DNA of 63,772 nt, filler included, from Lenisia limosa (taxonomy: Eukaryota > Protista > Breviatea), in the NCBI GenBank assembly GCA_001655205.1. It is 17 parts of 17 records of this genome, joined end to end, with 100 filler letters (N's around TTAATTAATTAA, not from the genome) between each part and the next. Parts side by side here need not be neighbours in the genome. Positions count along the whole stretch, not along the records: positions 1 to 1,862 come from LPNZ01004880.1; positions 1,963 to 6,092 come from LPNZ01006824.1; positions 6,193 to 9,340 come from LPNZ01004043.1; positions 9,441 to 11,271 come from LPNZ01007374.1; positions 11,372 to 19,552 come from LPNZ01007895.1; positions 19,653 to 20,870 come from LPNZ01007544.1; positions 20,971 to 25,847 come from LPNZ01000819.1; positions 25,948 to 29,294 come from LPNZ01005778.1; 9 more parts are not named here. One strand, 5' to 3'. A model generated the notes under the pieces. It did no database searches. It was not told where the DNA came from and worked only from the letters and a program-made list of their open reading frames with translations. This document shows positions 174-63,772 of the stretch, one piece after another; position 1 is the first letter of the stretch; each line of letters opens with the position of its first letter. A program made the translations under genes and the position numbers.

Positions 174-1601
174 GTTGTCCAATCAGAGCCCTACAACAAC
201 AAGGCTGATATCTGGTCGTTAGGCTGTATTCTCTACCAACTTTGCTGCCTGAAACCTGCATTCACTGGTAATAACATGCTCATTGTGGGGAGGGAGGGGG
301 GGTATCCGCTATTATGTGATGGGGTGGATGGCTTCGGTCAGATACAACCTTGTTATATTTTGAGATTATTGACACTTCCGATTTTATAGAGATAATTGAT
401 TTATCGTTAGTTCTCTATTGTTCACGCTTTCAAAGACGATTTAATGGTCCTTTTGAATTTATCACATTAACACACAAGGTTGCAAAGAAGATTGTAGAAG
501 GCCACATCAAGCCCCTCCCCGAGATCATGCCCGACCTTGACCCGGAGTATTGGTGTGGCTGGTTCCGCCTATTTGCTTCGTTTTCAATGAGTGTTTTTTT
601 CTTCGTGTCATGTTATCTGTATTTGAAAACACAATTATAATATGACCACCTTTCCAAGTTAGTATCAACAAAAATTTGAATTATGACAACATGCCTGATT
701 ACAGCATGTATCATCATTATTATAATATGACCAGATTTTTCAGAATATTGACAATTATAATTATCAGTTTTTCATATGACCATGTTTTCAGGATATTGAC
801 ACTAATCATCAGTATATAATATAATCATTCTTTTCAATATATTGACATTACAGGGCTGTTATCCAGAAGTTACTGACAGTTGACCCCAAAGAAAGGCCTT
901 CAGCTAGTGAAGTGAGCTTTGATAATTGCAAATGCATAGGTCTCCTTGAAATTGTTTTTTAAAGGAATTAATTGAGAGTATTCGAATTAAAGTGTCTGAA
1001 ATGGAGTTTAAGGCACTACGTCGCACTTCCATTGATTGAATTATTTTTTCAATTAATTGCACGGGGCCTAGAAATGTAACTTTGGAGGTATAAAATACTG
1101 CATATTAGAACACCCCCTTCCCCTCCCTTGTTTTTTTGAGAATTTGAATGACATAAATGTATGAAGGAATCCCACCTTACGCTGGAGTGNNNNNNNNNNN
1201 NNNNNNNNNNNNNNNNNNNNNNNNNNNNNNNNNNNNNNNNNNNNNNNNNNNNNNNNNNNNNNNNNNNNNNNNNNNNNNNNNNNNNNNNNNNNNNNNNNNN
1301 NNNNNNNNNNNNNNNNNNNNNNNNNNNNNNNNNNNNNNNNNNNNNNNNNNNNNNNNNNNNNNNNNNNNNNNNNNNNNNNNNNNNNNNNNNNNNNNNNNNN
1401 NNNNNNNNNNNNNNNNNNNGAACTACTTATGGACCAACTGGACGGCTTACAGGTAGCGGGGGGTAAATAAGGACACACCATCATGCATAAGAGATATTTG
1501 GATTATTGTATAATACTAAGTCACCGAAATGCTCACCCCTGCCAGGAATCAGTGGTGGCTCTTACAGTGAAAAACAGCCAATTAGCACTGAACGCCCAGA
1601 A
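174..1601 (+). CDS. NEK/NIMA-type Ser/Thr kinase, C-lobe exons (5'-partial, multi-exon)
   Basis: Exons 174-284, 479-552, 854-911 splice GT-AG in frame to [81 protein letters not shown] (kinase subdomains IX-XI, NEK-like [13 protein letters not shown]). Downstream exons near 1420-1452 and 1521-1601 are less certain. Confidence 0.85.
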
Positions 1602-1862
1602 GTATGTTCATGGTGGTTGATATTTAAAGACCTATTTTATTCAATAAATAATTATTTAAAAAAGAATAGTTTTTTACCAAAATTAAAATTTGAGATAAAG
1701 TGTCTGAAATTGTGTTTTGCTTTGTCAAATCAAAGTCTGAAATTGTGTCTGAAATTGTGTCTGAAATTGTGTCTGAAATTGTGTTCTCGTTACAATATGT
1801 CACACTTCCAATTTTGAAATTAATTTCCCAATTTTATTATTGTACTCTATAAATTCACTCTT

Positions 1863-1962
1863 NNNNNNNNNNNNNNNNNNNNNNNNNNNNNNNNNNNNNN
1901 NNNNNNTTAATTAATTAANNNNNNNNNNNNNNNNNNNNNNNNNNNNNNNNNNNNNNNNNNNN
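1863..1962. other. Artificial contig-joining spacer N44-TTAATTAATTAA-N44 (first of 16)
   Basis: Identical 100-bp spacers at 1863, 6093, 9341, 11272, 19553, 20871, 25848, 29295, 36231, 41188, 47280, 49516, 51117, 53359, 60332, 62453; TTAATTAATTAA gives stops in all six frames; genes do not continue across them. Confidence 0.97.
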
Positions 1963-2044
1963 CCTTTAAATTCATTTATCTTTTCTTGTTCAACCTCCCC
2001 ACTCCTCAATTGATACTTTTTTTTTTGTTTCATCAAACCCCCAG

Positions 2045-8274: not shown

Positions 8275-8283
8275 GTAAATATA

Positions 8284-9174: not shown

Positions 9175-9222
9175 GGTACTATGTATGTTGTTTTCACTGG
9201 ATTGTATCATCTGTACTATATA

Positions 9223-9330
9223 ACAGAGTTGTAAGGCAAATGATTGGGTGAATTACTATTATATCTTATAATCGTGATGGTGTGGACAGCTTCGGCCAGA
9301 TACAACCTTATTTTTTCTTTATCATTGCTA
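9223..9330 (+). mobile_element. Family B dispersed repeat (about 110-130 bp, no TIR, UUCG hairpin)
   Basis: ACAGAGTTGTAAGGCAAATGATTGGGTGAA...GTGATGGTGTGGACGGCTTCGGCCAGATACAACCTT...CTCATTGCTA; other copies near 315, 10747(-), 21164(-), 27402, 40125, 42705, 45283, 47208, 48770, 53210(-), 63585(-). Confidence 0.85.
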
Positions 9331-9440
9331 TATGTATGTANNNNNNNNNNNNNNNNNNNNNNNNNNNNNNNNNNNNNNNNNNNNTTAATTAATTAANNNN
9401 NNNNNNNNNNNNNNNNNNNNNNNNNNNNNNNNNNNNNNNN

Positions 9441-10724
9441 TCATCCCTGCAGTGACCAGCCAGCTAGTCTCGACCGAGGTTCCGTATTCGGTGGGGGTGG
9501 GGGGTGGACAATACTCTGGATAGGGCTTCCCTTTGGTCCCAAAAATGGTTTACTTCTCGATAAATATCGATATTTTACCAGTATTTTTCGGACCGTAGGA
9601 AATCCCTAACTGTGCGGGGAGGGTATTGTTTTAGGCGGATTGCTCTAAGACGATGCATTATTCAGTTTAGGAGAGTATTACCTAGATCAAATACTGAACT
9701 TCCTTGATTTGCTCTCATTATTTCAGGCTCACCTTCTACCCCGTGTATGAGGATGGAAGAGACTTGGGCGTTTGATACCGCAACCCCTGCTAATTTCTCA
9801 TTCCTTTACCTCAATGCTATAATATCGTTCACCCTTTGCAGTTTTGTCGCGACTGCCTAAAGACGTCGAAGATAACGTACGCCACGAGTTGAGCAAAAAG
9901 GTGAAGGGTGCTTATATGATGCGATAGTTTAAAAAAAAAAAAAAGAGGGTTGAGCAAANNNNNNNNNNNNNNNNNNNNNNNNNNNNNNNNNNNNNNNNNN
10001 NNNNNNNNNNNNNNNNNNNNNNNNNNNNNNNNNNNNNNNNNNNNNNNNNNNNNNNNNTTGTTCTTCTCTTTTCATTTGACTGTTGTGACTCCCTCCCCCT
10101 CATTTCTTCATTTTATTCTTCATTCACATTTTCCAATTTTATTCTCTCTTCCAATTTGCCTCTATACGCCTGTTCACCCCCACCCCAATTTGTTACTGCT
10201 TTTTATTTTTTGTTGTTTGTTTTGTTTGTTTGGAGTTTTCGATTGTTTGGTTCGTGATTAGCACATTTACGCCAATATTCTTCGAAATTTCCTTCGTTTT
10301 TCTCCTCACCCCCAGGATATTGTGCTTTCCACCATCAAAACCGTGCCGGTGGGCTGGGTGAGTGCTATGGGCGGCATCGTCACGGCCCGGGCGGTCAAGT
10401 ACGTCTCCACGCGGCCGTCTGAGCTCGATATCGATGAGTGGTGGCGGGANNNNNNNNNNNNNNNNNNNNNNNNNNNNNNNNNNNNNNNNNNNNNNNNNNN
10501 NNNNNNNNNNNNNNNNNNNNNNNNNNNNNNNAAATTTATGAAACAAAAAAAAGCCCCAGGGGTGGGGGGGGAGGTAAAAAGTCTTAAATATTCTTTAGGA
10601 GGTGTGGATTGACGTTTTCAACCCCCTTAATTTCCACAGGTCCGAGCGGAGGTCAGGTCACACGCAGAGCACCTGAACTGCAATCACATCATAGGCTACA
10701 GGGAAGAGCTTTCCGCTTTTGAAG
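9441..10724 (+). CDS. C2CD5: C2CD5 (KIAA0528)-like protein, internal exons
   Basis: DIVLSTIKTVPVGWVSAMGGIVTARAVKYVSTRPSELDIDEWWR (from 10316) and VRAEVRSHAEHLNCNHIIGYREELSAFE (10640-10724) match the recalled C2CD5 segment GGVVSARSVK...DAWW.EIRQEIKSHAKALGCHAVVGYSE. Confidence 0.8.
10195..10315 (+). mobile_element. Family D repeat forming the intron 3' end
   Basis: GGAGTTTTCGATTGTTTGGTTCGTGATTAGCACATTTACGCCAATATTCTTCGAAATTTCCTTCG...CCCCCAG ends at the acceptor; homologous copies at 18460-18586, 30130-30190(-), 47460-47593, 51501-51610(-), fragment at 2240. Confidence 0.85.
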
Positions 10725-11371
10725 GTTAGTGTCATTAATACAGTATTATAGCAATGAGAAATACAAAACAAGGTCGTATCTGGCCGAAGCCGTCCACACC
10801 ATCATAGTTATATTGGCTTCTTTTGAGGAGGTACAGCTTTTTCTCGCAAGGTATTTGCTAGCTTCCCTTTGGTGAGGATTTATCGAGAAATTCAGTCTTT
10901 TTTGGGACAGTAGGGAAGCCCTTGTCACTCTTTGTTCAGAATTTTGCATTTTCTTTGGAGACATGAGGTCTCAATTATCAGGAAATGTTACCTCTAGGTT
11001 TCTTATTTTAATGACTCATTAGGGCTCCACTTCGCTTCGGAAAATTTGGTAAAATCTCGATAGTTTTCGAGTATTTATTGAGTAATTCAGTCATTTTTTT
11101 AAAACCAAAGTGAAGCTCTTGATCCCATACTCAATTAGTTTCATAATGCACGGAATAGTTATTTTTTAATGTAGAGAATGTGACTTCTCTAGTTCAAAAA
11201 AAAAATTATGACATCAACCTTCGTGTGCTTTCAGCCAGCAGAGTCGATTGGGGGTTTTTTTTGTTTCCTATNNNNNNNNNNNNNNNNNNNNNNNNNNNNN
11301 NNNNNNNNNNNNNNNTTAATTAATTAANNNNNNNNNNNNNNNNNNNNNNNNNNNNNNNNNNNNNNNNNNNN

Positions 11372-15600: not shown

Positions 15601-18600
15601 NNNNNNNNNNGATTTTTATTTTTGCTTTTTTGTTCCATAACCCCCCTCCCCCTCCCCCCCCAGGGTTCAACTATCAAAACACTGAGCGGACCAGCGACCC
15701 TGAAGTATGGCGCTATTTTCGGTAAGAGGCCAAGGCAGACCTAAACAAAACAGCCAGCATTGTAATTAAGAACTATAGCAAGCCCGGGTTTGCACTCTTG
15801 GCTTTATTGGGTCTTATTTTTGTTTATCTCAGAGGTCATGTTCCAACCTATTTGTGACCCCATAGACCCGCCGAATGTTTGTGATGGAGCGTCACGAGCT
15901 GCAGAGGAGGGCACTCATTACCCATGGCAGTGCTCCACCTGTGACTCAACAAGGTAATGATGATCGAAGGAAGAAAAAATATTTTTTTTCGTTTTACTTT
16001 AACGCACAATTCACCCATAACACTATTTCGTTTACGCTGCCGCAGTCAACTTCCGAGCGCAGGAGCCGGCCGATGCGTCTGTTTGGATGGAACCGTACCT
16101 TCTGATGGTACCTGGGATTATACAGGGCCTAATCGCCTGAGATTTAACTTCTTCACTACAATCAAGATTACTGCTACAAAACTTAAGTTTTTACTTCTTC
16201 CAGGAGTGGTTGCGTACGAAACGCATTTTGCAGCTCTTAATACAGCAACTTCAATTAATAACGTGGGGGGCTTTTGAGATGATAATTGGATAATTGATTT
16301 CTGCTATAGTGTATAGTAGCTACTAGTATATGATGGTTATACCATTTCAGATATGAGATTATTAATGTATCGTGCGATTCCTCTTCATTTGGTGGTCGTT
16401 TGATGAAAGATTAACATGATACTTATCATCACAGTTCACATTTCCCAACTTCTTCCTCACTATTGTAGATTGACCATTTGTTCTTCTCAGGAGGTCATCA
16501 ATTTGTATCGGGTGAGAGGGGTGTTATCATAATGGTCTGACAATGATGTGTTACTTTAGGATAGATATCGAGGTGAAACACTAGTTATTTAGAACGGAGG
16601 TGAATCATTATTCAGCTTTCTTTCCTCGCCTCGAGATAGTGTCTTTGTCTTTGATTCAAACTCACCATTCAGCAACCGAAATGAGCTCAGCAATGCCTTC
16701 ACTGCGTAGGGTGGTGTCATTGTTATTGGGGGTATATGATAAGGGGATGTTTATAGGGCGTTGATAGGGGAGGGGGTATTAGTATGGGCTTCACTTCGGT
16801 TCCAAAAATACCGGAATATAGATAGTTTTCGAGGATTTATCTAGAAATTCAGTGTTTTTTTCTAACCGAAGTGAAGCCCTAAGTACGTATATTCCAATCT
16901 ACTATCTACACGACATGTCCGCTGTCACTGCCCTTTTCAGCCCAAAGCTCACAATGTAGATCCTGTGGAACCCTTCGGAATCAACATGCCGCATAACTTC
17001 GTTTATGATGCCATTTCGGTAACTGGGGCACTGTTTGGCATCAGAGTACCCATTTGGAATTTTCCGTTTCGAATGTCAACAGGTAGGACATATCATAGTA
17101 TGCGTTTGTATGTTTGAAAAACCCTGATTCCACTATTCAAGGGATTTTCAAATGCGATTAAGTCACGATTAATTTTCATTAGACCTCCACCACTCAATAC
17201 GGCCTGATTGTCAGTGCTCCGTTCATCCTTGAGGAAGGCTTTACTTACTCCATGACCGTGAATGCGTACGTCTCAAACGCATGGAGAATGGCCCTGTTGA
17301 ACAACTACAAAGTCAATGTAAGAGGAGGGTAGTGAGCGATGGAAATATGTTTGTGTGTGTGTGTGTTTGATCTCATAATATGCATCTCAACTGTATCTTC
17401 ATAGAGACTATATTTGATCGAGAATATCATCTTTATGTTTTCCGTTTATTACATTTTGCAGATCTATTTGGACTATCGTCGAGACGGTTATTTGGACCAG
17501 TATTGGTCATATCACCACCATGTTGTCCAACCTGAAGAAATGACATCAAGATGGAACAAATTGTGGGGTCTTCCGTCTATAACTTCATCAACATATTTTG
17601 ATATGACACTTATACAGACGCCATGTGCTATTGGTGTTTTGTGAAATAGTATCTTCTTCTCACCCCCTCCAGCCACTGGGACATTCTCATCGATAAAACG
17701 AACACCTATCGTTTCCGAATCCACTACTATTGCGGCATAGGTACATATGAGTAATCTCTGTGCCATGGAATAGATCGTCTAAGATATCAACACAATTGAA
17801 ACCAATTGCCCCCATTAAATATCATTGATTTTGATGGTGATTTCAGACGTTCCGATTGCGGACGTGCCTTATCCCAGCAACCTGTGTGAAGGCGCTGATG
17901 TGGGGCTGTCTTACGTGAGAATCGCTCGTGACGCTAATCCCTATAGTGAGCGGTGTGAATAGTTTTTTATAGTGAGTATGTGCTGTACAGCGAGCATGGG
18001 TGATTGTTTCTTTTTATTTACTATCAACTTCAATGTTAATATCATTTTGATTATTATTATATTATTATTATCACTATTGTACTGGAAAAGTGTCTCATTG
18101 TCTGAGAATCACATTTTGGTCTTCTATGAGAGTTTTATGATATTAAACGTTCACATCCCCCTCTCTTTTAACATATCAGCTCCGAAATGTCAGACGGATT
18201 GTCCGGGAACAGCATTCCCCCAAAGGTACTCCGACGTTTGCCTTAACTGTCTTGATGAGTCCACCTGTGGGGGGTGGGGTGGTAAAGGTGTCAGTGATAT
18301 GGGCAGGGGTAGAGGGGTATTTATTATTATTATTATAATTTTAAACAAAATATGTATTGAATCGAAGTCTCCTTCGTGTTACCCTCCTTTTCACAACGTT
18401 CTTCATCGAAATCTCCTTTGTGTTACCCTCCTTTTGACCATTAATTTTCTGTTGTACCCCTCCCGCTCGTGTTTGTTATTGCTCGTTTTTTGTTTGTTTG
18501 GAGTTTCAGATTATTCGGTTCGTGATTAGTACCTTTACGCCAATTCTTCATCGAAATTTCCTTCATTTCACTCCCCCCCCCCTCAGATGACACAACCCTT

Positions 18601-19516
18601 GACGACTGCCTCTGTCCCAGCGGTTATCAGGGCAAGCCAGGCATGAGGAATCCTTACCAGCATCTCGGCTGCTCTCTTTGCCCCGCTAATACGTATAGGT
18701 TGGGGGTCATTACTATAGCTCTACCTCTTGTCTGCCAACAGATTTTGGGCTTTTTTTTTTGTATCTCATACAAGTTTAAAGGTTTTGTAAGAGATGGATT
18801 ATCACATTCAGCCTCGTATTTATTTTATTTATTTCCTTTATTCAAAGTTGTATACTCATAGATTTATGTTGTATTAAGCTATAATTTGCACGACGATAGA
18901 GGCTCTAAAAGTGAATGTAGAAGTATAAATCAAAAGAGGGTGACTTAGATAGTCCGTGAATTGATTTTTTTCGAAATAAGGGTAAACCTTATTTCTTTTG
19001 TTTCCACGCAACCTTTGTCTGTTATTTCTGAAATAAAACCGTTGTTAAACACACTTCTGCATTTANNNNNNNNNNNNNNNNNNNNNNNNNNNNNNNNNNN
19101 NNNNNNNNNNNNNNNNNNNNNNNNNNNNNNNNNNNNNNNNNNNNNNNNNNNNNNNNNNNNNNNNNNNNNNNNNNNTCGTGTCTTTCACAAATATTGCCAG
19201 TTGAGTTTATTTTGGAGGTTTTGCTTCATAAATTTCTATTTACCCCCCTCCCGCTGGAGTGATGGGATGCGGTGCTGCAGAAGCGATTGGCCTGGGCTTT
19301 GTTTGTTTTGTTGTTTTCAACCTTGTGTTATCGGCGGCCGACAGAGTTGATTTTGGGCTTTTTTTTTTGTTTCATAATTTTTTTCCCATTTTTACTCCCC
19401 CCACCCCCAGCACAAGTTCTGGTGGGCTGTCGAGCTGCAATTCATGTATATCGGGCTACACGTCCCCTAGTGGCTCGGGTCTTCCCTCTGACTGTGAGCT
19501 CTCTTGGGGGGAATAG
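12670..19516 (+). CDS. Large secreted protein with C-terminal Cys-rich (GCC2/GCC3, furin-like) repeats, about 20 exons
   Basis: Signal-like start MPAFRFPTSPWAVFTFMTLVLVPLASA; many GT-AG exons; tail APKCQTDCPG...CLNCLDESTC, DCLCPSGYQG...GCSLCPANTY, SCNSCISGYTSPSGSGLPSDCELSWGE*. Confidence 0.75.
13629..13744 (+). repeat. 22-bp tandem repeat x5 ending at a 3' splice site
   Basis: Unit TTTATCTCACACGTCACCTTAG at 13629, 13651, 13673 and onward; the exon IVEEAES starts at 13745. Confidence 0.85.
19253..19410 (+). mobile_element. Family C repeat forming the intron 3' end
   Basis: CGCTGGAGTGATGGGATGCGGTGCTGCAGAAGCGATTGGCCTGGGCTTTG...CAGAGTTGATTTTGGGCTTT...GTTTCATAA...CCCCCAG; preceded by the tail of another copy; about 20 copies or fragments in the window. 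Confidence 0.88.
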
Positions 19517-19780
19517 ATTGAGTCTAATCTAGAGGCATAATAAGGAATATTTNNNNNNNNNNNNNNNNNNNNNNNNNNNNNNNNNNNNNNNNNNNNTTAA
19601 TTAATTAANNNNNNNNNNNNNNNNNNNNNNNNNNNNNNNNNNNNNNNNNNNNCAAACAAGCTCAAAATCAACTCTGTTGGCTGACAACACACGAGGAAAG
19701 TACAAATCACGGGTTAATGGGGCAATGAGCGTGACGTGAGGGTAAAATTGGAAAATTTATGAAATAAGGGGGTCAAAATA

Positions 19781-20450
19781 ATGACGGGAGCTTGGAGAGC
19801 AGAAGGGGTACTTGTCCTCAGAATACACAACCCAGAATTCCGTCACCTGAAAGGAGGAGCGGTGAGGGACTTTGAGTCGGCAAAGACGGGGGAAGGTCCA
19901 TCAATATTTCCAGCCCATTGCACCCGTTCACTGCACACGAGAACGTCTGGAGTGTCATATGAGGGGGGGGGGATGGAAAATTTATGAAACCAAAATAGCC
20001 CAAGATCAACTTTCTGGTTAGCATTAGTAATATACGAAAATTGATAAAAACAAAACAAAGCCAAGGCCAGTCTCTTCTGCAGCACCGCATACCATCACTC
20101 CATCGTCCCTTTTCTTCATTATTTTTCAGATCCCCTCTCAGTTTGAAACATAGGTTTTTTATTAGTATACAAGGGGAGGGGTGAAGAAAGGGATTTGTTT
20201 CCCAACACATAAGAGTGTTATTCTTCAACGAAATGTGTTTCATTTACACCACCACCCAACCCCCTTGCTCCCAACACATAAGAGTAGGGCTTCACTTCGG
20301 TTCGAAAAGGGACGGAATTTCTCGATAAATCCTCGGAAACTATTGATACTTTACCGAACCGAAGTGAAGCCATAGAATGACAGCCCAGCCCACACATAAG
20401 CGTGACATCTTCTTTCGAATCCGCATCTTGAAGCCCCTGATGTACCTGGC
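19781..20450 (-). CDS. Hypothetical protein fragment, possible IQ motif
   Basis: Minus exons RYIRGFKMRIRKK and VLVCSER-VTEFWVVYSEDKYPFCSP; family C copies are sense to this strand. Confidence 0.35.
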
Positions 20451-21021: not shown

Positions 21022-22375
<1,354 letters not shown>

Positions 22376-24606: not shown

Positions 24607-25847
24607 GTAAAAGACAGTTTAGCATCGGCGCTTGGTGATGAACCGGTGAGGATGGGTAGTTACTAGGGCTTCACTTCGGTTCGAAAAAAGACTGATTTCT
24701 CGATAAATCCTCGAAAACTATCGATATTTTACCGTTCTTTTTCGAACCGAAGTGATGCCCTTGTAGTTACCTGGTCAAATGAGGATTTATGAGATATTAT
24801 ACCAAGTTCTTCCCAACTGTCCGAAAAAGACTGGTAATATATAGCAATTCACCCTGTAGTTTGTGATGTCGTCTCTCCATCCACGTGCACAGGATTTCAA
24901 GGTAATTGTCGAAGTATGTAAGGGGTCTTGAGTTGAAATATTAAATGTAGTATATCTTGCAAACATACCATCATAGCTCTTATTTTCCATGCTAGTCTTA
25001 TCCTCCAGACGATGAAATCCTCGAAATGCTCTGCTGGTGTTATTGCTCCTGAAGCCTTCCACCTCATTCCTGAGTCATGTGGGTTGCTTTAAGGGGTGTC
25101 AGTTGATAGTTTTCAAGGATTTATCGAGAAATTCGGTCTCGCAAGTGATATGTACAGCTTGATACCTTCTGATTTCCAACGCCGTAGGTTTTCCCATGTC
25201 ATCTTCGTCCGCAATTGCGTCAATTGGGCTCAATAAAGGAGTCCTTAAAATGGCCTGTCAGACAAGTGAAGCTGGTAGGGGCTACCCCAATACACCATTG
25301 AAGGGAATATTGACATATACTGAGCTTACATCGGTCATTGGTGCTGCTACTCTTTACATCTAACCCTGACAATCTCTATATTGAAGAGTTAACTGTAAAC
25401 ACAGAGTGTTTCAGCTTTTTATCTCACAATGGGCTTTTACTACTGCATATCAATTGTTTTTTTTTGTTTTTTTTTGTTTTAGCTCTTAAAAAACTGAAGC
25501 GGAGTATCAGAACTAAGCAAAATATTCCCCCAATGTCCCAATACTCTCCATCTTCCCCCAACAATGACAAAATAGGCCCGGGCCGCTGCTTTGATGTGTC
25601 CAATGTACCGACGGCTTCTAGAAGAGAGCGAATGAAGACTGCCGCGCAAAACGACGCAATTCGTGGCGCTAGCGCAGCGGACTGGAAAAATACTGAGGTG
25701 AGAGACGGGGGTGTTGGTATTGTTTCAGTTTACATTATCCCTCTTTTTCATGTCCGTCAGACGCATGCACAGAAAAAGGCGCGGTATGCTCGAAGCAAGA
25801 AGTTTGAGGAATCCATGACAGCCACCGCAGTCCGTGCCTGTCTTGAG
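24607..25847 (+). CDS. Hypothetical protein (partial)
   Basis: GT-AG-bounded open segments such as GPGRCFDVSNVPTASRRERMKTAAQNDAIRG and THAQKKARYARSKKFEESMTATAVRACLE. Confidence 0.4.
24664..24762. mobile_element. Family A hAT-type MITE with 8-bp TSD GTAGTTAC
   Basis: About 25-bp TIRs TAGGGCTTCACTTCGGTTCGAAAAA / TTTTTCGAACCGAAGTGATGCCCTT; TSD 24656-24663 and 24763-24770. Confidence 0.92.
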
Positions 25848-41388: not shown

Positions 41389-43803
41389 CGTCTTCTCTCC
41401 CAACAAAAACGTGCTTCTTGTTAAATCCACTGCATATGACATTCACTGCACAAGGTGCCTCGTAAATGGTCTAAATGGTAATGTGGTCTTGAGGTTGGGG
41501 TGGAGGAGTAAAATTTGAAAATTTTTGAAACAAAAAAGCCCANNNNNNNNNNNNNNNNNNNNNNNNNNNNNNNNNNNNNNNNNNNNNNNNNNNNNNNNNN
41601 NNNNNNNNNNNNNNNNNNNATCCCATCACTCCAGTGTGGGGGGTGATTTGATTCAAATGGATTCTGTGGAGTTGAAAGTATTAATAGCAACCAAACCAAC
41701 TCTCTTTTTATTGAGCCCAGGGTGTAGCAATTTAACAAAATTGTCCTCAGAGCCGGAGAAAACATGCCCTCCTTGAAATACTCTAAAATGTAAGATGATA
41801 ATATTCTGAATTTTCACCCATCATAGAGAAAAACAGAATTTATTATGTTTAAGTCATAATGATGTGTTTGAATTGTGATAGAGTGTATTACATCCTTGAT
41901 CAAAACAAAACACACAGAGCACCTCATACAGCGAAGATATGATGTGCATATGATGCTGGTCGATCTTAAACTTAACATTCTGACAGTCGGGTCCTGTTTG
42001 CGTAAAGCACATGAAGGAGTACAGGTAAGATCACTATTTCCCCATTCCTTGAACTCACTACTGGCACAAGACCCATAGTTACCTAATCTGATCAAAGATC
42101 CATCTTGAAGACCGATAAAGATGTCCCCCGAAGGAGTCTGCGCAACTGAGTGTACGAGAGGGGGATTGATGACTTCGCCTTCGCGAGGGTCTGAAATGTG
42201 GTCAGCATAATAGGACTAGACTTTGAGGATAATAAGATAACCAGTGAAAATGATATTTCTAAACTATTTTGACACGTTAGGTTTTTTTCACTTACCTTGA
42301 AGATGGGATCCACCAATAAAGCTCTCTTTCAGCATATTACTGCGGTACACTGTCGCATCAAGTGAAACACTAATTACTACAGTTGTAAGTGGACTTATTT
42401 CAAGAAGACTCCTGCTATATATCAAACAATAGCCTCTGACCATCTCCCGTCTTTCCTTTCGCAGCAAAAACGGCTTGGGAGCAAATCTACGATGTAACTT
42501 GGAAANNNNNNNNNNNNNNNNNNNNNNNNNNNNNNNNNNNNNNNNNNNNNNNNNNNNNNNNNNNNNNNNNNNNNNNNNNNNNNNNNNNNNNNNNNNNNNN
42601 NNNNNNNNNNNNNNNNNNNTCCGTTTTAGTACTAAAAAATCCTCATGGATCTGAGCTACTTCCCTGTAAAGAATTCGAATGCCGGTGGTGGCCTGCTCCT
42701 ATTAGGCAAATGATTGGGAATTGTAATTTTACTCTATTCCAATACTTCTAACAGCGTGATGATGTGGATTGATTTGGTAAGATACTACTTTGTTTTATTG
42801 CCCATTTCTCCATATTAGGTGAATTGTAACTGTAGGTGAGTGAATAGGGTATTGAATATTGTAATAATGTTACTTTCGAAAAAAAGGCAAACACAATTTG
42901 AATACAGTCCCACATTTTCATGGATTTGGAGATTAGAAAGGCATTCCATGTTAGGCATCTTGATGTAGCTTAAACAACCTTGGTCATCCGCCAATAAGGC
43001 TCGAGTGCACGCTGGGTTGATGTCAATCTTGAAACAGTAAGACAATCTGGTCTGTTGAATATAATTCCAGCAAAGAGTGTGAAAAATCTGGTCTGTTGAA
43101 TATGATTCCAGCAAAGAGTGTGAACACTTACAGAATTAATTTCATCTTCTGTTTCTTCCTCCATTATTTGTACACTTGTCTGTTCGAATTTTTCGAAGTC
43201 TAAAATGAACTTGTGGAGCTATTGCAGTTAAATAATCAAAGAATTAAGCCATTCTAATACATTTGTAATTGTAATTAGTATTGCAAGGATTCCCCTCAAA
43301 TAAATACCATATCATATTCTTTACAATTGGTATGTTCACAAATTCATTATAAGATATTTTANNNNNNNNNNNNNNNNNNNNNNNNNNNNNNNNNNNNNNN
43401 NNNNNNNNNNNNNNNNNNNNNNNNNNNNNNNNNNNNNNNNNNNNNNNNNNNNNNNNNNNNNNNNNNNNNNNNNNNNNNNNNNNNNNNNNNNNNNNNNNNN
43501 NNNNNNNNNNNNNNNNNNNNNNNNNNNNNNNNNNNNNNNNNNNNNNNNNNNNNNNNNNNNNNNNNNNNNNNNNNNNNNNNNNNNNNNNNNNNNNATTATT
43601 CACGAAACAAGCCTGCGGTTTCTTGCTATCAATGTTCCAAACAATAAGGCGTCCATCCTTGGGGGTGATAACGGCAAATAAAGAGGAGATCTTAACACCC
43701 TTGCAACCTCGCCACCACTGAAGAGGTACTTCTTGGAAGTTGTTAAACATATCACTCCATTTTTATGTTCAACAAGTTCATAATCCACTGTTTCTGTCTC
43801 CAT
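41389..43803 (-). CDS. WD40-repeat protein (WDR53-like features), 3'-partial
   Basis: HKNGVICLTTSKKYLFSGGE-DGRLIVWNID; DINPACTRALLADDQGCL; GGHVFSGSEDNFVKL; HVFVGREDG. Confidence 0.8.
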
Positions 43804-47154: not shown

Positions 47155-47736
47155 TATGTTCCTGGCTATGTCTCATGCACAACTACCAATATATCTCTCT
47201 TATAAGCGTGATGGTGTGGAAGGCTTCGGCGAGTTACAATCTTGTTTTTATTTCTCATTTCTATATATTATACATATAANNNNNNNNNNNNNNNNNNNNN
47301 NNNNNNNNNNNNNNNNNNNNNNNTTAATTAATTAANNNNNNNNNNNNNNNNNNNNNNNNNNNNNNNNNNNNNNNNNNNNTGTTTTGTTGTTATCAACCCT
47401 CGTGTGCTGTCAGCCAAAAGAGTTGATTGGGGGTTTTTGTTCATAAGTTGTCAAATTAACGTTGCTCCTGTTTGTTATTGCTTGTTTATTTTGTTTTCTG
47501 TTTGCTTATAGTGTCAGATTATTCGGTTCGTGATTAGTACTTTTACGCCAATACTCTTCATCGAAATTTCCTTCGTTTTACCCCCCCCCCCCCNNNNNNN
47601 NNNNNNNNNNNNNNNNNNNNNNNNNNNNNNNNNNNNNNNNNNNNNNNNNNNNNNNNNNNNNNNNNNNNNNNNNNNNNNNNNNNNNNNNNNNNNNNNNNNN
47701 NNNNNNNNNNNNNNNNNNNNNNNNNNNNNNNNNNNA

Positions 47737-49146: not shown

Positions 49147-49615
49147 TNNNNNNNNNNNNNNNNNNNNNNNNNNNNNNNNNNNNNNNNNNNNNNNNNNNNN
49201 NNNNNNNNNNNNNNNNNNNNNNNNNNNNNNNNNNNNNNNNNNNNNNNNNNNNNNNNNNNNNNNNNNTCACTATCATTTAGAAATTTGTACATATTATTTC
49301 ATATAATATAATATTTGTGGGGGTGCGGGTTTCTGTTTTTGGGTTCGAGTTAAAAAATAACATCCACCAAATCCTTCTTACTTCTAACTTGATTTGGGCC
49401 TTTTGATTTTATAAATTTCCCAATTTTACGTCCGCTAGAGTGGTGGGATGCGGTGTTACAGAAGGGACTAACCTAGGTTTTGCTGTTATCAACCTTCATG
49501 TGTGATTTGGGCTTTNNNNNNNNNNNNNNNNNNNNNNNNNNNNNNNNNNNNNNNNNNNNTTAATTAATTAANNNNNNNNNNNNNNNNNNNNNNNNNNNNN
49601 NNNNNNNNNNNNNNN

Positions 49616-51069
49616 CACCGCTACAACAATCCACTGGGAAGAGTCTTCATTTACCTCCTGCTGGAAAGTTGGCAGGAGTGGACTATATGTTTCATGAGAG
49701 TGGAAGGAAAATGATTGGATCATTTATTATCCAATATCTCTTATTGTGCTGGTGTTTACGATTTTAAGATCCTCAATTTTCATTTGTCAATTCCACTATT
49801 GTCAACATAATTTTGTTTCACAACTCCATATATACATATCATATACATTATTCCAGTGTTTCCAACATGGTTTTATTTGGCCATTCCACATATAATACAA
49901 CATGGTATCATTAATCAGGACGCTATGTTGTGCGTGATGCGATTAAGAAGGATGGCAAAGCATTCGAGGAAGTCCCCAAGATCACTCCCGCAAGAATCAG
50001 GTCCGTTTTGGGTCGCTTTTTCTCTGTGGATGATGGTGTGTAGAAATGAATGCGTAGGACTCACCACAACGTTTTATGTTTCAACATAATTTGTCCTTGG
50101 TTATTTCTCACACATCTCCCTATCAAACCCTTAACATCCCATCTCCGTATCATACCCTTAACATCCCATCTCCTTAACATCCCATCATACCCTTAACATC
50201 CTATCAAACCCTTCACATCCCATCTCCCTATCATACCCTTAACATCCCTCCTGGATCAAGCTCTACCGTAGTTAACAACCCCCTTTCATGTCATAAGGAT
50301 CAAAAACAATAAAGCAAACAAGCCCCCCAGGCCAGTCGTGGGGTAAATGGAATATTTATGAAACAGTAATAATAATAAATAATAAATAATAATAAAATTA
50401 ATAATAACATTTTCACATGAGTGATATCATTTTTTACGCAGTGATATGATCCCTCATATCCACTCTTTAATAATTGACTGACAAGTTTCAATGATACTCT
50501 GATACTGTCGGGATGAACCCTCGCGTTATCTTCGTTCATCATTTCGACTCGAAAGTCGGTCACATGATCATATCACTAGTGTTAACATTACCCTCACCCA
50601 AATACCGCTCACATCTCAGATGGATGAAGCTCTATACGATGGTCAACAACCCCCAGATTGCCGTCGACTCCAAGAACTATGGTTGGTAGGGTGTTACCTG
50701 AAAGACCGTAAAAAATCGCACTTGTCGAGGATTTATCGAAAATTCAGTCTTTTTTTGTTGCCGAAGTTATGGGGATGACTGAGTAATTCGCAAAATCTGA
50801 AATTAAGAGTCTGTATATATCAAATAGATAATATTATATCTGATAATATATCCAATTGCAAAATTCCAATTAATTGCAGTTCCGAGCGTGCACAAAATCA
50901 CGTTTTTATATGGACAAGAAAAGACATTTTTTCTGAATAGAATCTCTTGACATTTCCAATTTACACACCGAACATACGATCTCTTCATCAGCCCTATTTG
51001 AAACGCTGCTTACCCATTTCAGACGGAACAACCCACCCTGTTGGCAGACAGCGCTACGAGGCGGAAGGT
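49616..51069 (+). CDS. Hypothetical protein, internal exons
   Basis: GRYVVRDAIKKDGKAFEEVPKITPARI-RWMKLYTMVNNPQIAVDSKNYGW splice in frame; no family recognised. Confidence 0.5.
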
Positions 51070-51370: not shown

Positions 51371-53190
51371 CCACAATAACATTTCCAGTCTGGGTGTAGC
51401 GAAGGAGGGTGGTCCCGTTGTTAAAGAAGCAAGTTGCCTTCTGACTGTCTGCTACCAGGGTGGGTGTGGGGATCCGCTCGATTCCTGAGCATGGCTCGGC
51501 CTGGGAGGGGGGTAAGAAGGAAGTGAAACGAATGAAATTTCGACGAAGAATTTTGGCGTAAAGGTACTTAATACGAGCTGAATAATAATCTGAAACTTCA
51601 AAAAAACGGGGGAGGGGGGGAGGTAAATTGGGAAATTTATGAAACAATAGAAAAAAAAAAAACATCCCAAAATCAACGCGTGTGAAATTTCGATGAAGAA
51701 CATTGGCGCATCCCTTTACAATGTATCATGAAAAAGAAACCCCCAAAATCAACCTGCTTGTTAGATCATTAGATCATTAGAGAGGGGAGTTCAAAGTAAA
51801 GTAAACAAAAGTTCACTTCGGTTCGAAAAAAGACTGAATCCGATAAATCCTCGAAAACTATCGATATTATACCGGTCTTTTTCGAACCGAAGTGTACAAG
51901 TAACACACCTTAATTTTGTTATGTTCGAGATCGTAGACAATGAGCCGTGCCGGGAGAGTAGCAGGATACATGGGAGCAAGAAGGATGTACTGGAGGGATG
52001 AGACTATGGCTTCACTTCGGTAAGAAAAAAAGACTAATTTCTGGATAACTCCTCGAAAACTACCGATATTGTATCGGTCTTTTTCAGACCAGAGTGAAAA
52101 GCACAACATTGGGGTAAGAGGTGTATTGGAGCAATATATGATATATTATTATATTAATATTTGCAACCAAATTATGAAAAAAATTGTTAAATATGGGATA
52201 GCATTGGTTCTTATCGAGGGTTTATCGTGAAATTACACTTCTTATGTATTCCAAAAAGCCCCAAACACAACTCACGAGGTTGGAACGGAATATACAATAA
52301 GATGAATGGATGATTGATATATCGTGTGGTATGATGTTGATACCTATCGAGGATTTATTCCGTTTCAATAATATATCTCGAAAAATATGCCCTTAACCAC
52401 TCACAAGATTGGAATGGAGGATGTCGGTATCGATACTCAGTACAATCTCGTTTTCGAAGACTGTCACTCTTTCGGGACGAAGAGCTGAGGAATAAAAATT
52501 AGAGCTGCACTTTCGGTTCCAAAAAGACTGAATTCTCGATAAATCCTCGATAAATATCGATATTTTACAGGTGTTTCGGAACAGAAAGTGAAGCTCTAAT
52601 ATGGTTGGGTAGTTTAATAATTAAGTCAAATCTGAGATATTTAGACACATGTACATAATAATATATCATGTATCAAATGTTTTGAGATTATAAAAAGAGG
52701 ATTATTGCAATTAATTTTCATCCAGTGGGTGTCTAAAATGGTGTTTTCGTAAAAGCTCCCACTTGTTATTTAGAAATAGTCTTCACAAAATAATAACACA
52801 GAGTACAAATAACAGATGCGTTTGGTTCCAAAACGGATTGAATGTTTCATCTTTTATTAAGTCACAGAGGGTACCAACCTTGGTCTTCTGACGAGAACTT
52901 GTAGATGATAGAACCGACAAAATCGGCTGGGTTTGTCAGAAAAGAACTAGGGATAGTTCATGAAAGAAGGTAAAAAATGTACAAAGTGCGTGATAAGATA
53001 AGATATACTACCAATACTGAAAGAAAAATGACAGAAAATAAAAGAAAGAGGTGAATAAGAGAATAAGATGATATTTGCACCCCCCCCCCGTGACCCACCC
53101 TTGGTTTCGGACTGGTGGGGGGCATCAAGAGTAACCGTGTAAAACACCGTGTCAGTACGGTCATCAGCACTGGGTTGGTAAGGGGGGGAG
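51371..53190 (-). CDS. Hypothetical beta-rich protein, internal exons
   Basis: Exons ALRPERVTVFENEIVLSIDTDILHSNL, YILLAPMYPATLPARLIVYDLEHNKIK, AEPCSGIERIPTPTLVADSQKATCFFNNGTTLLRYTQTGNVI. Confidence 0.55.
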
Positions 53191-54610
53191 GGGTATATGA
53201 TATGAGAGAGATGAGAAATAAACAAGGTTGTATCTGGCTTGCAGTATACTATATAGTGACCGTGGTAAGTCTTGACCGTGTCTGGAGGGAAATCACTCAT
53301 ATCATACTATTTTGTTTTTACAAAGGATTCACCTGTGTTGGCTGACAACTCACGAGGGNNNNNNNNNNNNNNNNNNNNNNNNNNNNNNNNNNNNNNNNNN
53401 NNTTAATTAATTAANNNNNNNNNNNNNNNNNNNNNNNNNNNNNNNNNNNNNNNNNNNNTGAAGGGGGTTGATGGAGTGCTGCTGTCTGGGAGGGGTGAGA
53501 TGAGGCTGTTGACATGGCAAGACAAGTGAATAAATACGATCAAGTAATTGAATCAAAAGACAAATTCACATTATTGTAAAAATTTTAGAAGTCAAATTTT
53601 TGTACTTGTGTTCATTTGACTCTAATAAGACCGATAAAATACCGAAAATTATCGATAGTTTATCGGGGCTTTGCTTGACAAAGTTATACTATTTCAAATG
53701 AAATCAATTAAAATAATAATAATTTTATCAAAATGATGTGAAGTTNNNNNNNNNNATCTTGGTGGCCAACTTTCCGGAACTGCGGTGACGGGCGTTTCCG
53801 GTGAGGAGAGGCTTGGGGAAGTGCTTAGCGACATCACCAGCAAGAGCACGAATTGAAGGGGGTTGATGGAGGGAGTGCTGCTGTCTGTGAGGGGTGAGAT
53901 GAGGCTGTTGACATGGCAAGACAAGTGAATAAATACGATCAAGTAATTNNNNNNNNNNNNNNNNNNNNNNNNNNNNNNNNNNNNNNNNNNNNNNNNNNNN
54001 NNNNNNNNNNNNNNNNNNNNNNNNNNNNNNNNNNNNNNNNNNNNNNNNNNNNNNNNNNNNNNNNNNNNNNNNNNNNNNNNNNNNNNNNNNNNNNNNNNNN
54101 NNNNNNNNNNNNNNNNNNNNNNNNNNNNNNNNNNNNNNNNNNNNNNNNNNNNNNNNNNNNNNNNNNNNNNNNNNNNNNNNNNNNNNNNNNNNNNNNNNNN
54201 NNNNNNNNNNNNNNNNNNNNNNNNNNNNNNNNNNNNNNNNNNNNNNNNNNNNNNNNNNNNNNNNNNNNNNNNNNNNNNNNNGCGTCTGCCAGCGCCGTGT
54301 TTGGCGGTGTGAGTCAATATTGTCGATTGAAGAGTAAAAAGTAAAATTTTTATTTAAACAACACAACTCCCCCTTTACAAAGAACGGAGTGCATCGGTGA
54401 GATCAACGTACACCATGATGAGGTTGTACCAATGCACAACAGCGGGACAGGAAACGGTCTAAAACAAGCATGTGTACAATACAGTTAATAGTATCCTAAG
54501 AAGGCAAAATAAACACCAGAAGGACAACAAAGAGGTTTAAGTAAAGAAAAAGAAAATCACAAAGTTTTTAATTAATCACAAGGTTTATGCTGAGCAGCAT
54601 ATTATATAAT

Positions 54611-60586: not shown

Positions 60587-62100
60587 GTGCACTCCTCTCG
60601 AAAGATCGGCCCGTCACCAAGACCAGGCCTGTCGCCTCTCCCATCACCAAGTCTCACCCCTCAGTAGGATTGGGTTCCGCCTTTCTAGAACCCTTAGTGT
60701 TTCTCCTGAGTATACAAGCACTCTTTTTTGGGGGTGTATCTAGGGCTTCACTTCAGTTCGAAAAAGACGGAATTTCTCTATAAAACTCGAAAACTCTATA
60801 TTTTACCGGTCTTTTTCGAACCGAAGTGAAGCCCTAAGTATAATATGTTGCGTAAACAGTGACCGGGATAAGCCTGGACCGATTTTCCTTGGGAAATCAT
60901 GTAGAAAATTGGTCTTATCGCGGTCACTGTATGCTGGAGGGGGGTTGTATTCTCCCGTGAATATTTGTGTGTTGGAGGGGGGTTGTATCCAATGGATACG
61001 TGGCATCATATTTGATCTTCGCTAAGGGGGTTCACTCCGGTCCGAAATAGACCAGCAAAATAACAATAATTAAAATATTTATCGTGACATTCAGTCTTTG
61101 TTTTATTTGGACCGAAGGGAAGCCCTATTTTCAATACGACTTGACCCCCCAGTATCAGCAGGAACCCCTCCCCAACCCTCGAGGAGGAAAATGAAAATCG
61201 TACGCTGGAGTGATGGGATGCGGTGCTGCAGAAGCGACTAGCCTGGGCTTTTATGCTGAAGTGATGGACTGTTCTTTGTTTGTTTTGTTGTTTTTAACTC
61301 TTGCGTGCGTCTAAATGCTAACCAACAGAGTTGATTCTGGAAAATTTCAAAGATTGTGCGTTTTCTTTGTTGTTTCATTAATAGCCCATGATTCCCCCAC
61401 CAACATAGTTGATTTTGGGCTTCTTTTTATTTTTCAAGTGTTTCAATTACACTCCCTCCTCTAGCGTCCTCAGTCTCCCCTCGTAGTCTCTCATCAAGTT
61501 CACTGTCCCCCACTTTGCCCCCTAATTCAGCTGTAATTCCCCTTGCACGGTGGGAAAGAACTCTTTTTTGCTGTAAAGTCTCTATTGAAACTATAATTAT
61601 AAAGATAAAGTCTCTATTGAAACTAGGATCAATATGACGCGCATTAAGAATAGCTTGCTTCAGATATCCGGGACAACTTTCCTATCTGAAACCCTTGCTT
61701 TAAGTGGAATCGTTAGCTAGCTGATAGTTAAGGTGTAAATTAACATTTATTTGGTTAATTAGTAAGGGAATCTCTACTAGTGGTTAATTTTATCTTTATG
61801 ATCCTGGTTTTAATTTTGATTGAACTTGAATCACGCCACTTATGCCTCTTTTACTCCTGTCTCAAAATCGACTTCAGGTCACTATCAATACAAAATAGAA
61901 TAATATTTTGAAATCGCTCCAAGGAAGGCCTATACTTCGATAATTAATCTGTTACAACTTTCCCATGAGAAGAATCAACGACGATTTCCCCTTACGTTAA
62001 CAGGTCACCGTCAATGACGTCGCATTCTGCCACAGAAATCCCAAGTCTCACCAAGTACTGCTGGATTACAAAGCAGCGCTTACACCATTTTCATTGACAT
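60587..62100 (+). CDS. Hypothetical protein, internal exons
   Basis: GT-AG-bounded open segments at about 60587-60709, 61153-61199, 61465-61550 and from 62005 (VTVNDVAFCHRNPKSHQVLLDYKAAL). Confidence 0.45.
60741..60836. mobile_element. Family A MITE, near-perfect 28-bp TIRs (TSD not preserved)
   Basis: TAGGGCTTCACTTCAGTTCGAAAAAGAC / GTCTTTTTCGAACCGAAGTGAAGCCCTA (1 mismatch). Confidence 0.9.
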
Positions 62101-62619
62101 ATACATGTTTCACATTTTTCATTGACAAACATTTTTTCATTGACATAGAATATGCACGTACATTTCCAAATTCATCCCACTGTTATTCCACTATTCTTGC
62201 TTCGTTTCACTTTTTTTGTTATCAACCTATGTATGCCATCAGAGTTGACTTTTTTTTGTTTCATAAATTGTCCAATTTCACCCCCTCCCCGAAAGCCGCG
62301 ACTCAGTTAATACATATAGTATATGCATAGCATAGTTCGGTCAAGTCTTATCCCGGTCACTATATATCATATATATTCCAATCTCACGTGTTATCATCCA
62401 ACACATTGTTTTTGTTTTTGTTTCATAAGTTTCCAATTTCACCCCCCCCCCCNNNNNNNNNNNNNNNNNNNNNNNNNNNNNNNNNNNNNNNNNNNNTTAA
62501 TTAATTAANNNNNNNNNNNNNNNNNNNNNNNNNNNNNNNNNNNNNNNNNNNNTAGTTGTTCCATGATGAAATGGCAATTAATAGCCAAAGTGGAAAGTGG
62601 GTTCATTACTAATCTTGGC

Positions 62620-62886
62620 GTTCCCGATACGATGACTTCAGCAAGGTGAAGCGCAGTATCACAGATCTAAAACGTGAGTGGAAAAATCCGCCCAAAAACA
62701 ATTTTTTTTTCAGATTAAAATTTAATAATAGGGAAACAAAAGAAGAAAAACAATACATAAGGATACAAACAATGAAGAACAGCAGGAAGAAGACACCAAC
62801 CTCATGGTTACGAACTTGGAAAAGTCCTGACACAACCTCAGCCAGAGGCTCCAGCCGTGCCGCATCGCGACTCAACAGATTTTGCA
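62620..62886 (+). CDS. 3' end of a hypothetical gene
   Basis: RYDDFSKVKRSITDLK|GTGAGT then ...HQPHGYELGKVLTQPQPEAPAVPHRDSTDFA*. Confidence 0.4.
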
Positions 62887-63772
62887 TGATAGTCAGGCAT
62901 TGGGCCTGGCTTGCAGTGTTGCCCCGCTAAATTGTCACGTGTTAACAGGATAGTACGTTCAAGCTTCCTTATAGTACACAATTGAGAATCATGACCCCCC
63001 TCCCGATGTACATATTAGTATCTCATATCACGTAGTATACACAACAGAAAAAAAGAAAAAGAAAAAAACACAGAATATAAAATCCTCCTACCCCTCCTCG
63101 GATGATTTTGATGACGTTGTTGAATTTCATGGGCTCAGACTGTAACGAGTACCCCTCTGGAACGTCAGCCAAAAACACAGCGAGAAACAAACGGTTTTTG
63201 CAGTATTAAAGAAATAGAAACCTGGTTGCCAAAAATAGAGAATGTGTGTTTGAAAAGAGAACAAATAGGCAATGTGCAAATTAATCCTCAGTAAAGTCCC
63301 ATCCATACAATTTGAACATTCCTCCTCCCCCCCTCTCTGGAATATCAGCCAACAAACACCTTGGGAGAAAGGGTTTTCAAAGCAAAAAAGATAAAAACAG
63401 GATCGCCAAAAAGATACTTGGAGAGAAAGTGTTTTGAAACAAAGCCTGATACTCCTTTCATATCTCATTTCTACAAATGAATCCTCAGTAAAGCCCCATC
63501 ATTGCAACTTGAGCATAGCCCCTCCCCAAAATAGTCTACTCCATCATCCAAACAATAAGAAACAAAACTAAAATAAATATTACATAGCAATGAGAAATAA
63601 ATAAGGTTATATCTGGCCGAGCGTCCACGCCATCATGCTGATAGAGATATTGGATTATAGTATTCACTCAATCATTTGCCTTACAACTCTGTACACACAG
63701 CTTTCTGCGTGCCTCCCCAAAAAAAATAATAAATAATACTAACAATAATAACAAGCAAATCACCCCCCCCCC

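What the first reader, a model, noticed from the sequence alone, without database searches (positions are those of the whole stretch)
174..63700. Introns built from a shared kit of sense-oriented repeat modules (candidate Introner-like or intron-homing system)
Seen: unrelated genes on different contigs share the same intron sequences. Families C and D lie sense to the host gene in about 20 of 22 copies (by eye) and family B in about 10 of 12, on both strands, whereas the family A MITE occurs in either orientation (internal control). C/D copies repeatedly end at the acceptor AG (10315, 18586, 19410, 51501 minus, about 30056 minus across a gap). Known: Introner elements (Micromonas, Aureococcus, Dothideomycete fungi) create introns and are sense-oriented. 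Inference: these TIR-less modules either create introns or insert in a transcription- or splicing-coupled way and donate the branch point and pyrimidine tract; purifying selection against antisense copies is the alternative.
Basis: partly seen in the sequence, partly recalled or inferred. Interest (0 to 1): 0.8.

Follow-up and report, generated by a model that had tools for sequence, protein, structure and literature searches.

The report
Mobile repeats that supply intron ends
In this intron-rich eukaryote, two short repeats lie almost always in the gene's own direction and right at the predicted end of introns, likely because they are RNA-copied mobile elements that land in the C-rich end signal of existing introns and supply a new one, rather than creating new introns.

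Summary
Observation largely confirmed; the Introner reading mostly fails. C/D clusters are sense to the predicted gene in 20 of 23 window cases and 9 of 9 in stray contigs carrying the same repeats. In 16 of 18 introns the last copy ends within 30 host bases of the predicted AG (4.1 expected; MITE A 5 of 22). But the 5' ends of these introns are unrelated, and without the repeats a normal-sized intron remains (median 167 vs 140 nt). One B-bearing DDX3 intron matches a human intron position. So most copies are passengers that now form the acceptor end. D copies are mostly 5'-truncated (14 tail-only, 1 head-only), chained, C-tailed, lack long TIRs, and one has a 33-nt flanking duplication: likely SINE-like retroposons landing in C-runs, filtered by selection. 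Full-length D is shaped like a whole intron, and one site (61200-61464) may be exactly that. RNA covered none of the five named junctions. MITE A is a poor control (6:21 in the window).

The parts
10191..10315 (+). Family C copy forming the 3' end of predicted C2CD5 intron 9901-10315
   Evidence: Pfam YbjQ_2 on the next exon; open spliced frame
10532..10558 (-). Antisense D tail beside the gap that hides the donor of the next C2CD5 intron
   Evidence: 16.6 bits
2215..2276 (+). D tail plus C tail running into a gap that likely hides an exon
   Evidence: a GT follows the gap
11209..11270 (+). D middle part, sense, cut by the scaffold end
18361..18586 (+). Two truncated C tails and one C copy in chain, ending at the predicted AG
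18729..19410 (+). D fragment, D tail and near-full D in chain, ending at the predicted AG
19657..19767 (-). D tail and D middle, sense to the minus-strand gene
19960..20105 (-). Full D, ending about 14 nt before the predicted AG at 19947
28536..28574 (+). D tail at a predicted acceptor
28894..28930 (+). D tail supplying branch-like TTCAC, C-run and AG
30056..30312 (-). D joined to C, then gap, C-run and predicted AG at 30056
   Evidence: gene strand shown by RNA joints elsewhere in the gene
35759..35795 (+). Weak D-like tail before a gap that holds an 89-nt exon seen in RNA (TRMO gene)
   Evidence: (8.4 bits)
36645..36890 (-). D with internal deletion, flanked by a 33-nt direct repeat (30 of 33 identical), then a second tail at the predicted AG
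37351..37449 (-). D 3' half split from the rest by an A MITE, ending about 20 nt before the predicted AG at 37330
41497..41636 (-). D spanning a gap, ending 10-26 nt before a predicted AG
47380..47593 (+). D joined to C, C-run running into a gap before an exon
49389..49515 (+). D tail joined to a D head (tail-to-head chain)
50287..50365 (-). Antisense D tail plus D piece in an intron interior
51501..51780 (-). Chain of D and C fragments ending at the predicted AG at 51501
53329..53358 (-). D middle fragment, sense, cut by the scaffold end
61200..61464 (+). Candidate whole-intron D: GT at its first base, nested second tail, AG at its last base, between putative exons 61153-61199 and 61465-61549
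   Evidence: not RNA-verified, two other open models exist
62211..62452 (+). Two 5'-truncated D copies; gene context uncertain
21159..21240 (-). Family B copy inside DDX3 intron 21099-21245, a position shared with human DDX3X
40124..40250 (+). Full B copy; the one B whose end meets a predicted acceptor
24662..24761 (.). Reference copy of family A, a TA-flanked hairpin MITE used as control
   Evidence: (z -9.3)

Best explanation
C and D are short repeats without long inverted ends that lie in sense at the predicted 3' ends of normal-sized introns; they are likely non-autonomous retroposons (SINE-like, with a C-run where a SINE has poly-A) that insert at C-runs, and they likely survive at acceptors because their own tail restores the branch point, C-run and AG. 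Shown: strand bias, acceptor-side position, unrelated 5' intron parts, tail-only fragments, tail-to-head chains, one long flanking duplication. Inferred: an RNA copy ending in the C-run primes reverse transcription on the G-rich strand of a genomic C-run and often stops early; each new tail is a new target, so chains grow at the intron end; selection removes most antisense copies, which carry cryptic splice signals, and most interior sense copies followed by a good AG. B and A are separate passengers.
For: Position: 16 of 18 C/D introns have 30 or fewer host nt after the last copy (12 have 5 or fewer), 4.1 expected; A 5 of 22, B 1 of 10, E/F 0 of 8; p=3e-6 (five of the added introns have approximate donor coordinates). 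Host remainder median 167 nt vs 140 nt for 61 repeat-free introns. First 60 nt: 1 of 66 pairs similar, mean score 14.1 vs 12.8 background; last 60 nt: 10 of 45 pairs vs 1 of 3403. Polarity among 31 D hits: 14 tail-only, 1 head-only, 8 with both ends, 8 set aside (gap, internal deletion, split, or middle only) (p=0.001). Chains in the window and in X1 contig joints: C-end to D-start, D-end to C, D-end to D-start. A 33-nt direct repeat flanks the copy at 36850 and a 14-nt one the copy at L008:100; each begins right after a C-run on both sides. No fold better than shuffles in 7 of 7 B/C/D strands, against z -9.3 for A. Module-free introns have TYAC peaking 9-11 nt before the AG, which the tails mimic. 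Antisense D19252 holds an acceptor of 10.3 bits and a donor of 13.4 bits against real medians 7.7 and 8.6; of 15 interior sense tails 5 have no AG within 40 nt and 9 have one below the 30th percentile.
Against: Only 2 of 20 copies reach p<=0.06 for a flanking repeat, one of them a gapped marginal match; the L008 repeat has p=0.08. No partner LINE was found: the RT I read in G001 is a bacterial group II intron type, and a second RT hit on a large contig was not read. No tRNA- or Rfam-like head. G-runs at donors (23 of 90) are commoner than C-runs at acceptors (14 of 90), so pure C-run targeting predicts many antisense copies at donors; one candidate is seen (10532). The second antisense D scored only 5.7 and 5.0 bits, and antisense C has no cryptic site, so selection does not clearly explain C. 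Tail-only excess could be inflated because tails used as acceptors are conserved. Two copies lie outside any predicted intron (L009, L021:3168). No element-end junction is RNA-verified. A C-tailed retroposon has no precedent in my searches.
Confidence: 0.45

Rival explanations
1. Selection alone: C/D insert without site preference, by any mechanism, and only sense copies at the acceptor end persist because there the tail does no harm.
For: Cryptic donor and acceptor in antisense D19252; weak or absent AG after interior tails. A also shows a strand skew in the window. Copies exist outside predicted introns.
Against: A, B, E and F sit in intron interiors freely, so well over half of C/D insertions would have to be purged. 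Antisense C has no cryptic site. Chains of several copies in one intron end point to repeated targeting. The 10 nt before 5' junctions are 36% C vs 17% in intron interiors, though chains inflate this.
Confidence: 0.25
2. Splicing-coupled homing: full-length D is itself an intron (GT start, branch-like motif, C-run, AG). Its excised RNA, linear or circular, is reverse-transcribed and joined at 3' splice sites, replacing the acceptor of resident introns and now and then making a new intron.
For: GTA precedes the D head in the loose-end consensus of 105 X1 contigs (agreement 0.46) and in a joint, at 61200 and in L008. 61200-61464 has 3 host nt at each end; the upstream acceptor 61152 scores 10.2 bits, matched by 1 of 641 decoy AGs. 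Some head junctions fall 1-3 nt after a branch-like TTYAC (49433, L008), as trimmed-tail circles would (PMC10996645). The head can pair with the intron end in 3 of 4 folded copies.
Against: The donor at 61200 is weak (14th percentile) and two other open models exist. Junctions vary on both sides. The folds are no better than shuffles except one (z -2.4). Copies outside introns exist. [quoted passage not shown]
Confidence: 0.15
3. A DNA-level element: a decayed short-TIR MITE whose right end contains the AG, or a non-autonomous Helitron-type element.
For: A 7-9 nt inverted match between the D head and the intron end in some copies; TA before the head in some; CTAG after some tails. A Tc1-type DDE_3 fragment and a 1969-aa Helitron-like ORF are in G001 contigs.
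Against: Tail-only fragments dominate, which a two-ended transposase cannot move. No 3' hairpin. The 33-nt duplication fits neither. The Helitron contig shares no sequence with the window or the profiles.
Confidence: 0.1
4. Classical Introner: the modules created most of the introns that carry them.
For: Sense orientation, AG supplied, one candidate whole-intron copy.
Against: 17 of 18 introns fail the both-ends criterion; the remainder is a normal-sized intron; B sits in an intron shared with human.
Confidence: 0.05

Closest known systems
Introners / introner-like elements (Micromonas, Aureococcus, fungi; 10.1101/2022.06.06.494994 and PMC12130899, passages read)
   Same: Repeated intron sequence in unrelated genes, sense orientation, element-borne 3' splice site; full-length D has GT and AG ends; PMC12130899 counts about 5% of classified introners as non-LTR derived.
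   Different: Introner similarity must reach both intron boundaries, and these papers filter out secondary insertions. Here similarity reaches only the 3' boundary in 17 of 18 introns, and copies are truncated and chained.
SINEs moved by target-primed reverse transcription, such as Alu with L1 (mechanism recalled; intronic Alu papers seen as search listing only)
   Same: Short, non-coding, 5'-truncated, homopolymer tail, dimers (D-C), insertion into earlier tails, variable duplication, tail acting as a pyrimidine tract.
   Different: The tail is a C-run read in sense, not poly-A read in antisense; no tRNA/7SL/5S head found; no partner LINE found; copies gather at real acceptors instead of avoiding them.
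Mobile fungal stwintrons with near-terminal inverted repeats (PMC12403724, passages read)
   Same: Intron-shaped mobile unit with a short near-terminal inverted match; nested intron architecture.
   Different: Those integrate at new positions as complete units and nest in the donor; D mostly joins the acceptor end of resident introns and leaves no second AG.
Maize dSpm insertions spliced with an acceptor in the terminal repeat (recalled, no call)
   Same: Element end supplies the AG while the donor comes from the resident intron.
   Different: Single mutant alleles of a TIR transposon, not a genome-wide family of truncated copies.

Membership tests
Introner | Similarity between introns starts within about 10 intronic nt of the 5' boundary | tested here: not met
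   1 of 18 (61200) meets it; first-60-nt scores at background
Introner | Similarity reaches the 3' boundary | tested here: met
   12 of 18 within 5 nt; 10 of 45 pairs similar vs 1 of 3403
Introner | Intron position absent from orthologues or alleles | tested here: inconclusive
   One B-bearing intron is shared with human DDX3X. No orthologue with gene structure found for any C/D intron
Introner | Element is spliced out at its ends in RNA | tested here: inconclusive
   RNA run did not cover the junctions laid
SINE (TPRT retroposon) | 5' truncation with fixed 3' end and simple-sequence tail | tested here: met
   14 tail-only vs 1 head-only of 31 D hits; C-run tail
SINE (TPRT retroposon) | Variable-length target site duplication | tested here: inconclusive
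   One clear 33-nt and one weaker 14-nt repeat among 20 copies
SINE (TPRT retroposon) | Head derived from tRNA, 5S or 7SL with a Pol III promoter | tested here: not met
   No Rfam or ARAGORN match on B, C or D; so it works like a SINE but is not filed as one
SINE (TPRT retroposon) | 3' end shared with an autonomous LINE | not testable with these tools
   No whole genome held; none seen in G001
TIR MITE | Terminal inverted repeats at both ends and fixed TSD | tested here: not met
   C/D/B fold no better than shuffles; only a 7-9 nt imperfect match in some D copies. Met by family A
Helitron / Helentron | 3' hairpin before CTRR, no TSD, ends shared with a RepHel element | tested here: not met
   No hairpin in C/D tails; no match to the Helitron contig. 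B was not tested in depth

The most novel reading that the evidence does not exclude
D is a mobile spliceosomal intron that homes to 3' splice sites: its excised RNA is copied back so that it replaces the branch point, C-run and AG of resident introns genome-wide, builds chains there, and sometimes (61200-61464) founds a new intron. This would be an acceptor-replacing intermediate between SINEs and Introners.
Probability: 0.15. Interest if true: 0.85.

Novelty: new variant of a known kind. Interest (0 to 1): 0.5.

Why it matters
Transposons usually avoid splice sites. Here a repeat family appears to form the working 3' splice signal of many introns: 18 predicted introns in the window and six stray contigs. 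If RNA confirms this, splice signals in this genome are being renewed by a mobile element, and published Introner pipelines would discard exactly such cases as secondary insertions. With what are likely thousands of copies, one genome plus deep RNA could separate targeting from selection and test whether an intron-shaped RNA can be copied back into 3' splice sites, an open question in intron gain.

Tried and rejected
No whole genome is held, so no genome-wide map. Pattern scans found nothing in metagenome contigs or viral contigs; one GTDB record, G001, held stray contigs with the same repeats. The first gene finder confused strands and was replaced. The hit tables are stale output of a failed command and were discarded; one search replaces them. 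RNA cover was absent over the + gene at 12600-19552 and over the exon at 30055, which shows nothing either way. Ribozyme, snoRNA or tRNA origin: Rfam gave 4 sub-threshold hits, three on the A hairpin. Pairing of G-rich donors with C-rich acceptors in the same intron: weak, rho 0.19, p=0.06. Galactokinase-like (L012) and P450-like (L021) labels are my recall of motifs and were not confirmed; strands there rest on open frames and splice signals. Literature searches for a described case returned nothing or mostly mammalian transposon and splicing papers; the terms were narrow and most subscription papers are missing. Two earlier scan notes on GT-AT introners in other genomes did not bear on this.
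Full report
Setting. The window is 17 scaffolds joined by a fixed linker, with many N gaps. It comes from an intron-rich eukaryote; no whole genome is held and I did not identify the organism. I built gene models with a self-trained finder and by hand: 121 introns, 104 with GT-AG ends. Pfam supports a kinase, an LRR protein, C2CD5, a DEAD-box helicase and TrmO. RNA contigs of run X2 confirm strand and canonical joints in three genes. Donors are G-rich and acceptors C-rich; module-free introns show TYAC peaking 9-11 nt before the AG.

The repeats. A is a TA-flanked hairpin MITE (z -9.3). B, C and D fold no better than shuffles (7 of 7 strands) and match no Rfam family or tRNA. Copies are 73-96% identical to their profiles. 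D and C are often joined, and both end in a branch-like TTYAC followed by a C-run. 11,156 contigs of DNA run X1 lay on one 8.2-kb scaffold, with summed depth of tens of thousands over A, C and D against 25-33 in unique DNA; I infer thousands of copies. A bacterial genome record, G001, holds stray contigs with the same families; I fetched 45 of its contigs and used them as a second sample.

Orientation. C/D clusters at 8 bits or more are sense in 20 and antisense in 3 window cases (p=0.0005), and sense in 9 of 9 assignable G001 cases, with 2 unassigned and 2 chance-level hits ignored (hand tally; p). B is 12 to 3 with 1 unassigned (p=0.035). Gene strands are predicted for most scaffolds.

Position. 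After masking all repeats, 16 of 18 C/D introns have 30 or fewer host bases after the last copy and 12 have 5 or fewer; 4.1 are expected under uniform insertion. A gives 5 of 22, B 1 of 10, E/F 0 of 8 (p=3e-6). The two exceptions are a gap that likely hides an exon and a copy followed by a decayed second tail. Five of the introns added have approximate donor coordinates. The nearest RNA support is an 89-nt exon hidden in the gap that follows a weak D-like tail at 35795.

Do they make introns? The Introner papers require similarity near both boundaries and drop secondary insertions (10.1101/2022.06.06.494994 and PMC12130899, passages). Here the last 60 nt are similar (10 of 45 pairs vs 1 of 3403) but the first 60 nt are not (1 of 66; mean 14.1 vs 12.8). 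Without repeats the remainder has a median of 167 nt, against 140 nt for 61 repeat-free introns. The B-bearing DDX3 intron falls after the first base of the glycine codon that follows MACAQT. Human DDX3X has an intron after c.679 (PMC8127248, passage), which is the first base of codon 227; placing T226 uses chain positions with construct starts that I recall. So most copies are passengers in older introns. No such test was possible for a C/D intron.

The exception. Full-length D appears to start with GTA before the recognisable head: the loose-end consensus of 105 X1 contigs ends so (agreement 0.46), as do 61200 and a copy in L008. It is then shaped like a whole intron. At 61200-61464 D sequence spans GT to AG with 3 host nt at each end. 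The upstream acceptor at 61152 scores 10.2 bits, matched by 1 of 641 decoy AGs, but the donor is weak (14th percentile) and three exon models are open, two of which make D the whole intron. This is a candidate, no more.

Mechanism. Of 31 D hits, 14 keep only the tail, 1 only the head, 8 both ends, and 8 were set aside. Chains of tail-to-head copies occur in the window and in X1 joints. The copy at 36850 is flanked by a 33-nt direct repeat and one in L008 by 14 nt, each starting right after a C-run; the other copies show nothing convincing (2 of 20 at p<=0.06). Truncation, a homopolymer tail, nesting in earlier tails and a long duplication are what target-primed reverse transcription leaves (established knowledge, recalled). 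I infer a SINE-like element primed at C-runs (0.45). Targeting alone is not enough: G-runs at donors are commoner than C-runs at acceptors (23 vs 14 of 90), yet one antisense copy sits near a donor. Selection likely supplies the rest: antisense D19252 carries a strong cryptic acceptor and donor, and interior sense tails are mostly followed by weak or no AG. Against this, a second antisense D scored weakly and antisense C has no cryptic site. No partner LINE was found; G001 gave a bacterial group II RT, one RT hit not read, a Helitron-like ORF without shared ends, and a DDE_3 fragment.

Rivals. Selection alone (0.25); splicing-coupled homing of an intron RNA (0.15), for which the trimmed-tail circles of PMC10996645 (abstract and first part of the Discussion) give a chemistry and the near-terminal inverted repeats of mobile stwintrons (PMC12403724, passages) a parallel; a DNA-level element (0.10); classical Introner (0.05). 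The review PMC11282704 was seen in passages only.

Novelty. My searches found no described family that gathers in sense at acceptors of existing introns, but they were narrow and I saw no supplements; the Introner surveys' tables might list this organism. Verdict: a real, replicated pattern, a new variant of intronic mobile element rather than an Introner, with one lead worth testing in RNA.

Noticed in passing
G001 (L008-L012, L021, L022, L028, L031, L035, L042-L044, L046): A bacterial species-representative genome carries eukaryotic contigs that share repeats with the window: contamination of that record.
   Followed up: partly
window, all genes: Donors are G-rich (GTGGG-like, 29 of 93 with 6 or more G in 12 nt) and acceptors C-rich, with a branch-like TYAC only 9-11 nt before the AG.
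   Followed up: partly
window, families A and B: A and B lean to the donor side: 10 of 22 A introns have 38 or fewer host nt upstream and 6 of 10 B introns 30 or fewer. Could reflect growth of introns at the 3' end.
   Followed up: no
window 26633-26821, 39338-39516, 50406-50581 (E); 6810, 26110, 53255, 60484, 60857, 62326 (F): Two further repeat families with inverted ends, both also in G001 contigs.
   Followed up: no
window 11617-11702, 14994-15089, 15503-15610: X1 contigs bridge these gaps with about 23, 49 and 61 letters, so the N runs overstate gap size by about 55. Many gaps sit at C- or G-runs, some at D/C tails.
   Followed up: partly
L008:5490-5503: The predicted exon after a D copy begins with 14 letters that match the D head at 13 of 14, while that D copy lacks its first bases; chance or the start of a further unit.
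   Followed up: no
L018:1163-7069: A 1969-aa Helitron-like ORF flanked by tandem repeats in a G001 contig; source organism not established.
   Followed up: partly
L010:600-1563; L008, L009, L012 minus strand: A frameshifted Tc1-type transposase (DDE_3) and decayed transposase-like stretches inside or beside introns; possible partners of the MITEs.
   Followed up: no
L009:4060-5500: A DnaJ-like gene (by eye) broken by very short interruptions of about 20-25 nt, unlike the window's introns; decayed or from another organism.
   Followed up: no
window 8338-8700: An unusually long open frame on the + strand overlapping the 5' region of the minus-strand LRR gene; gene strand at 8330-9340 unresolved.
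   Followed up: no
X2 contigs on window 18465-19321 and 30270-30313: PolyA RNA contigs from other loci hold C and D sequence, one of 740 nt at depth 43 beginning in C; retained introns, element transcripts or DNA in the library.
   Followed up: no
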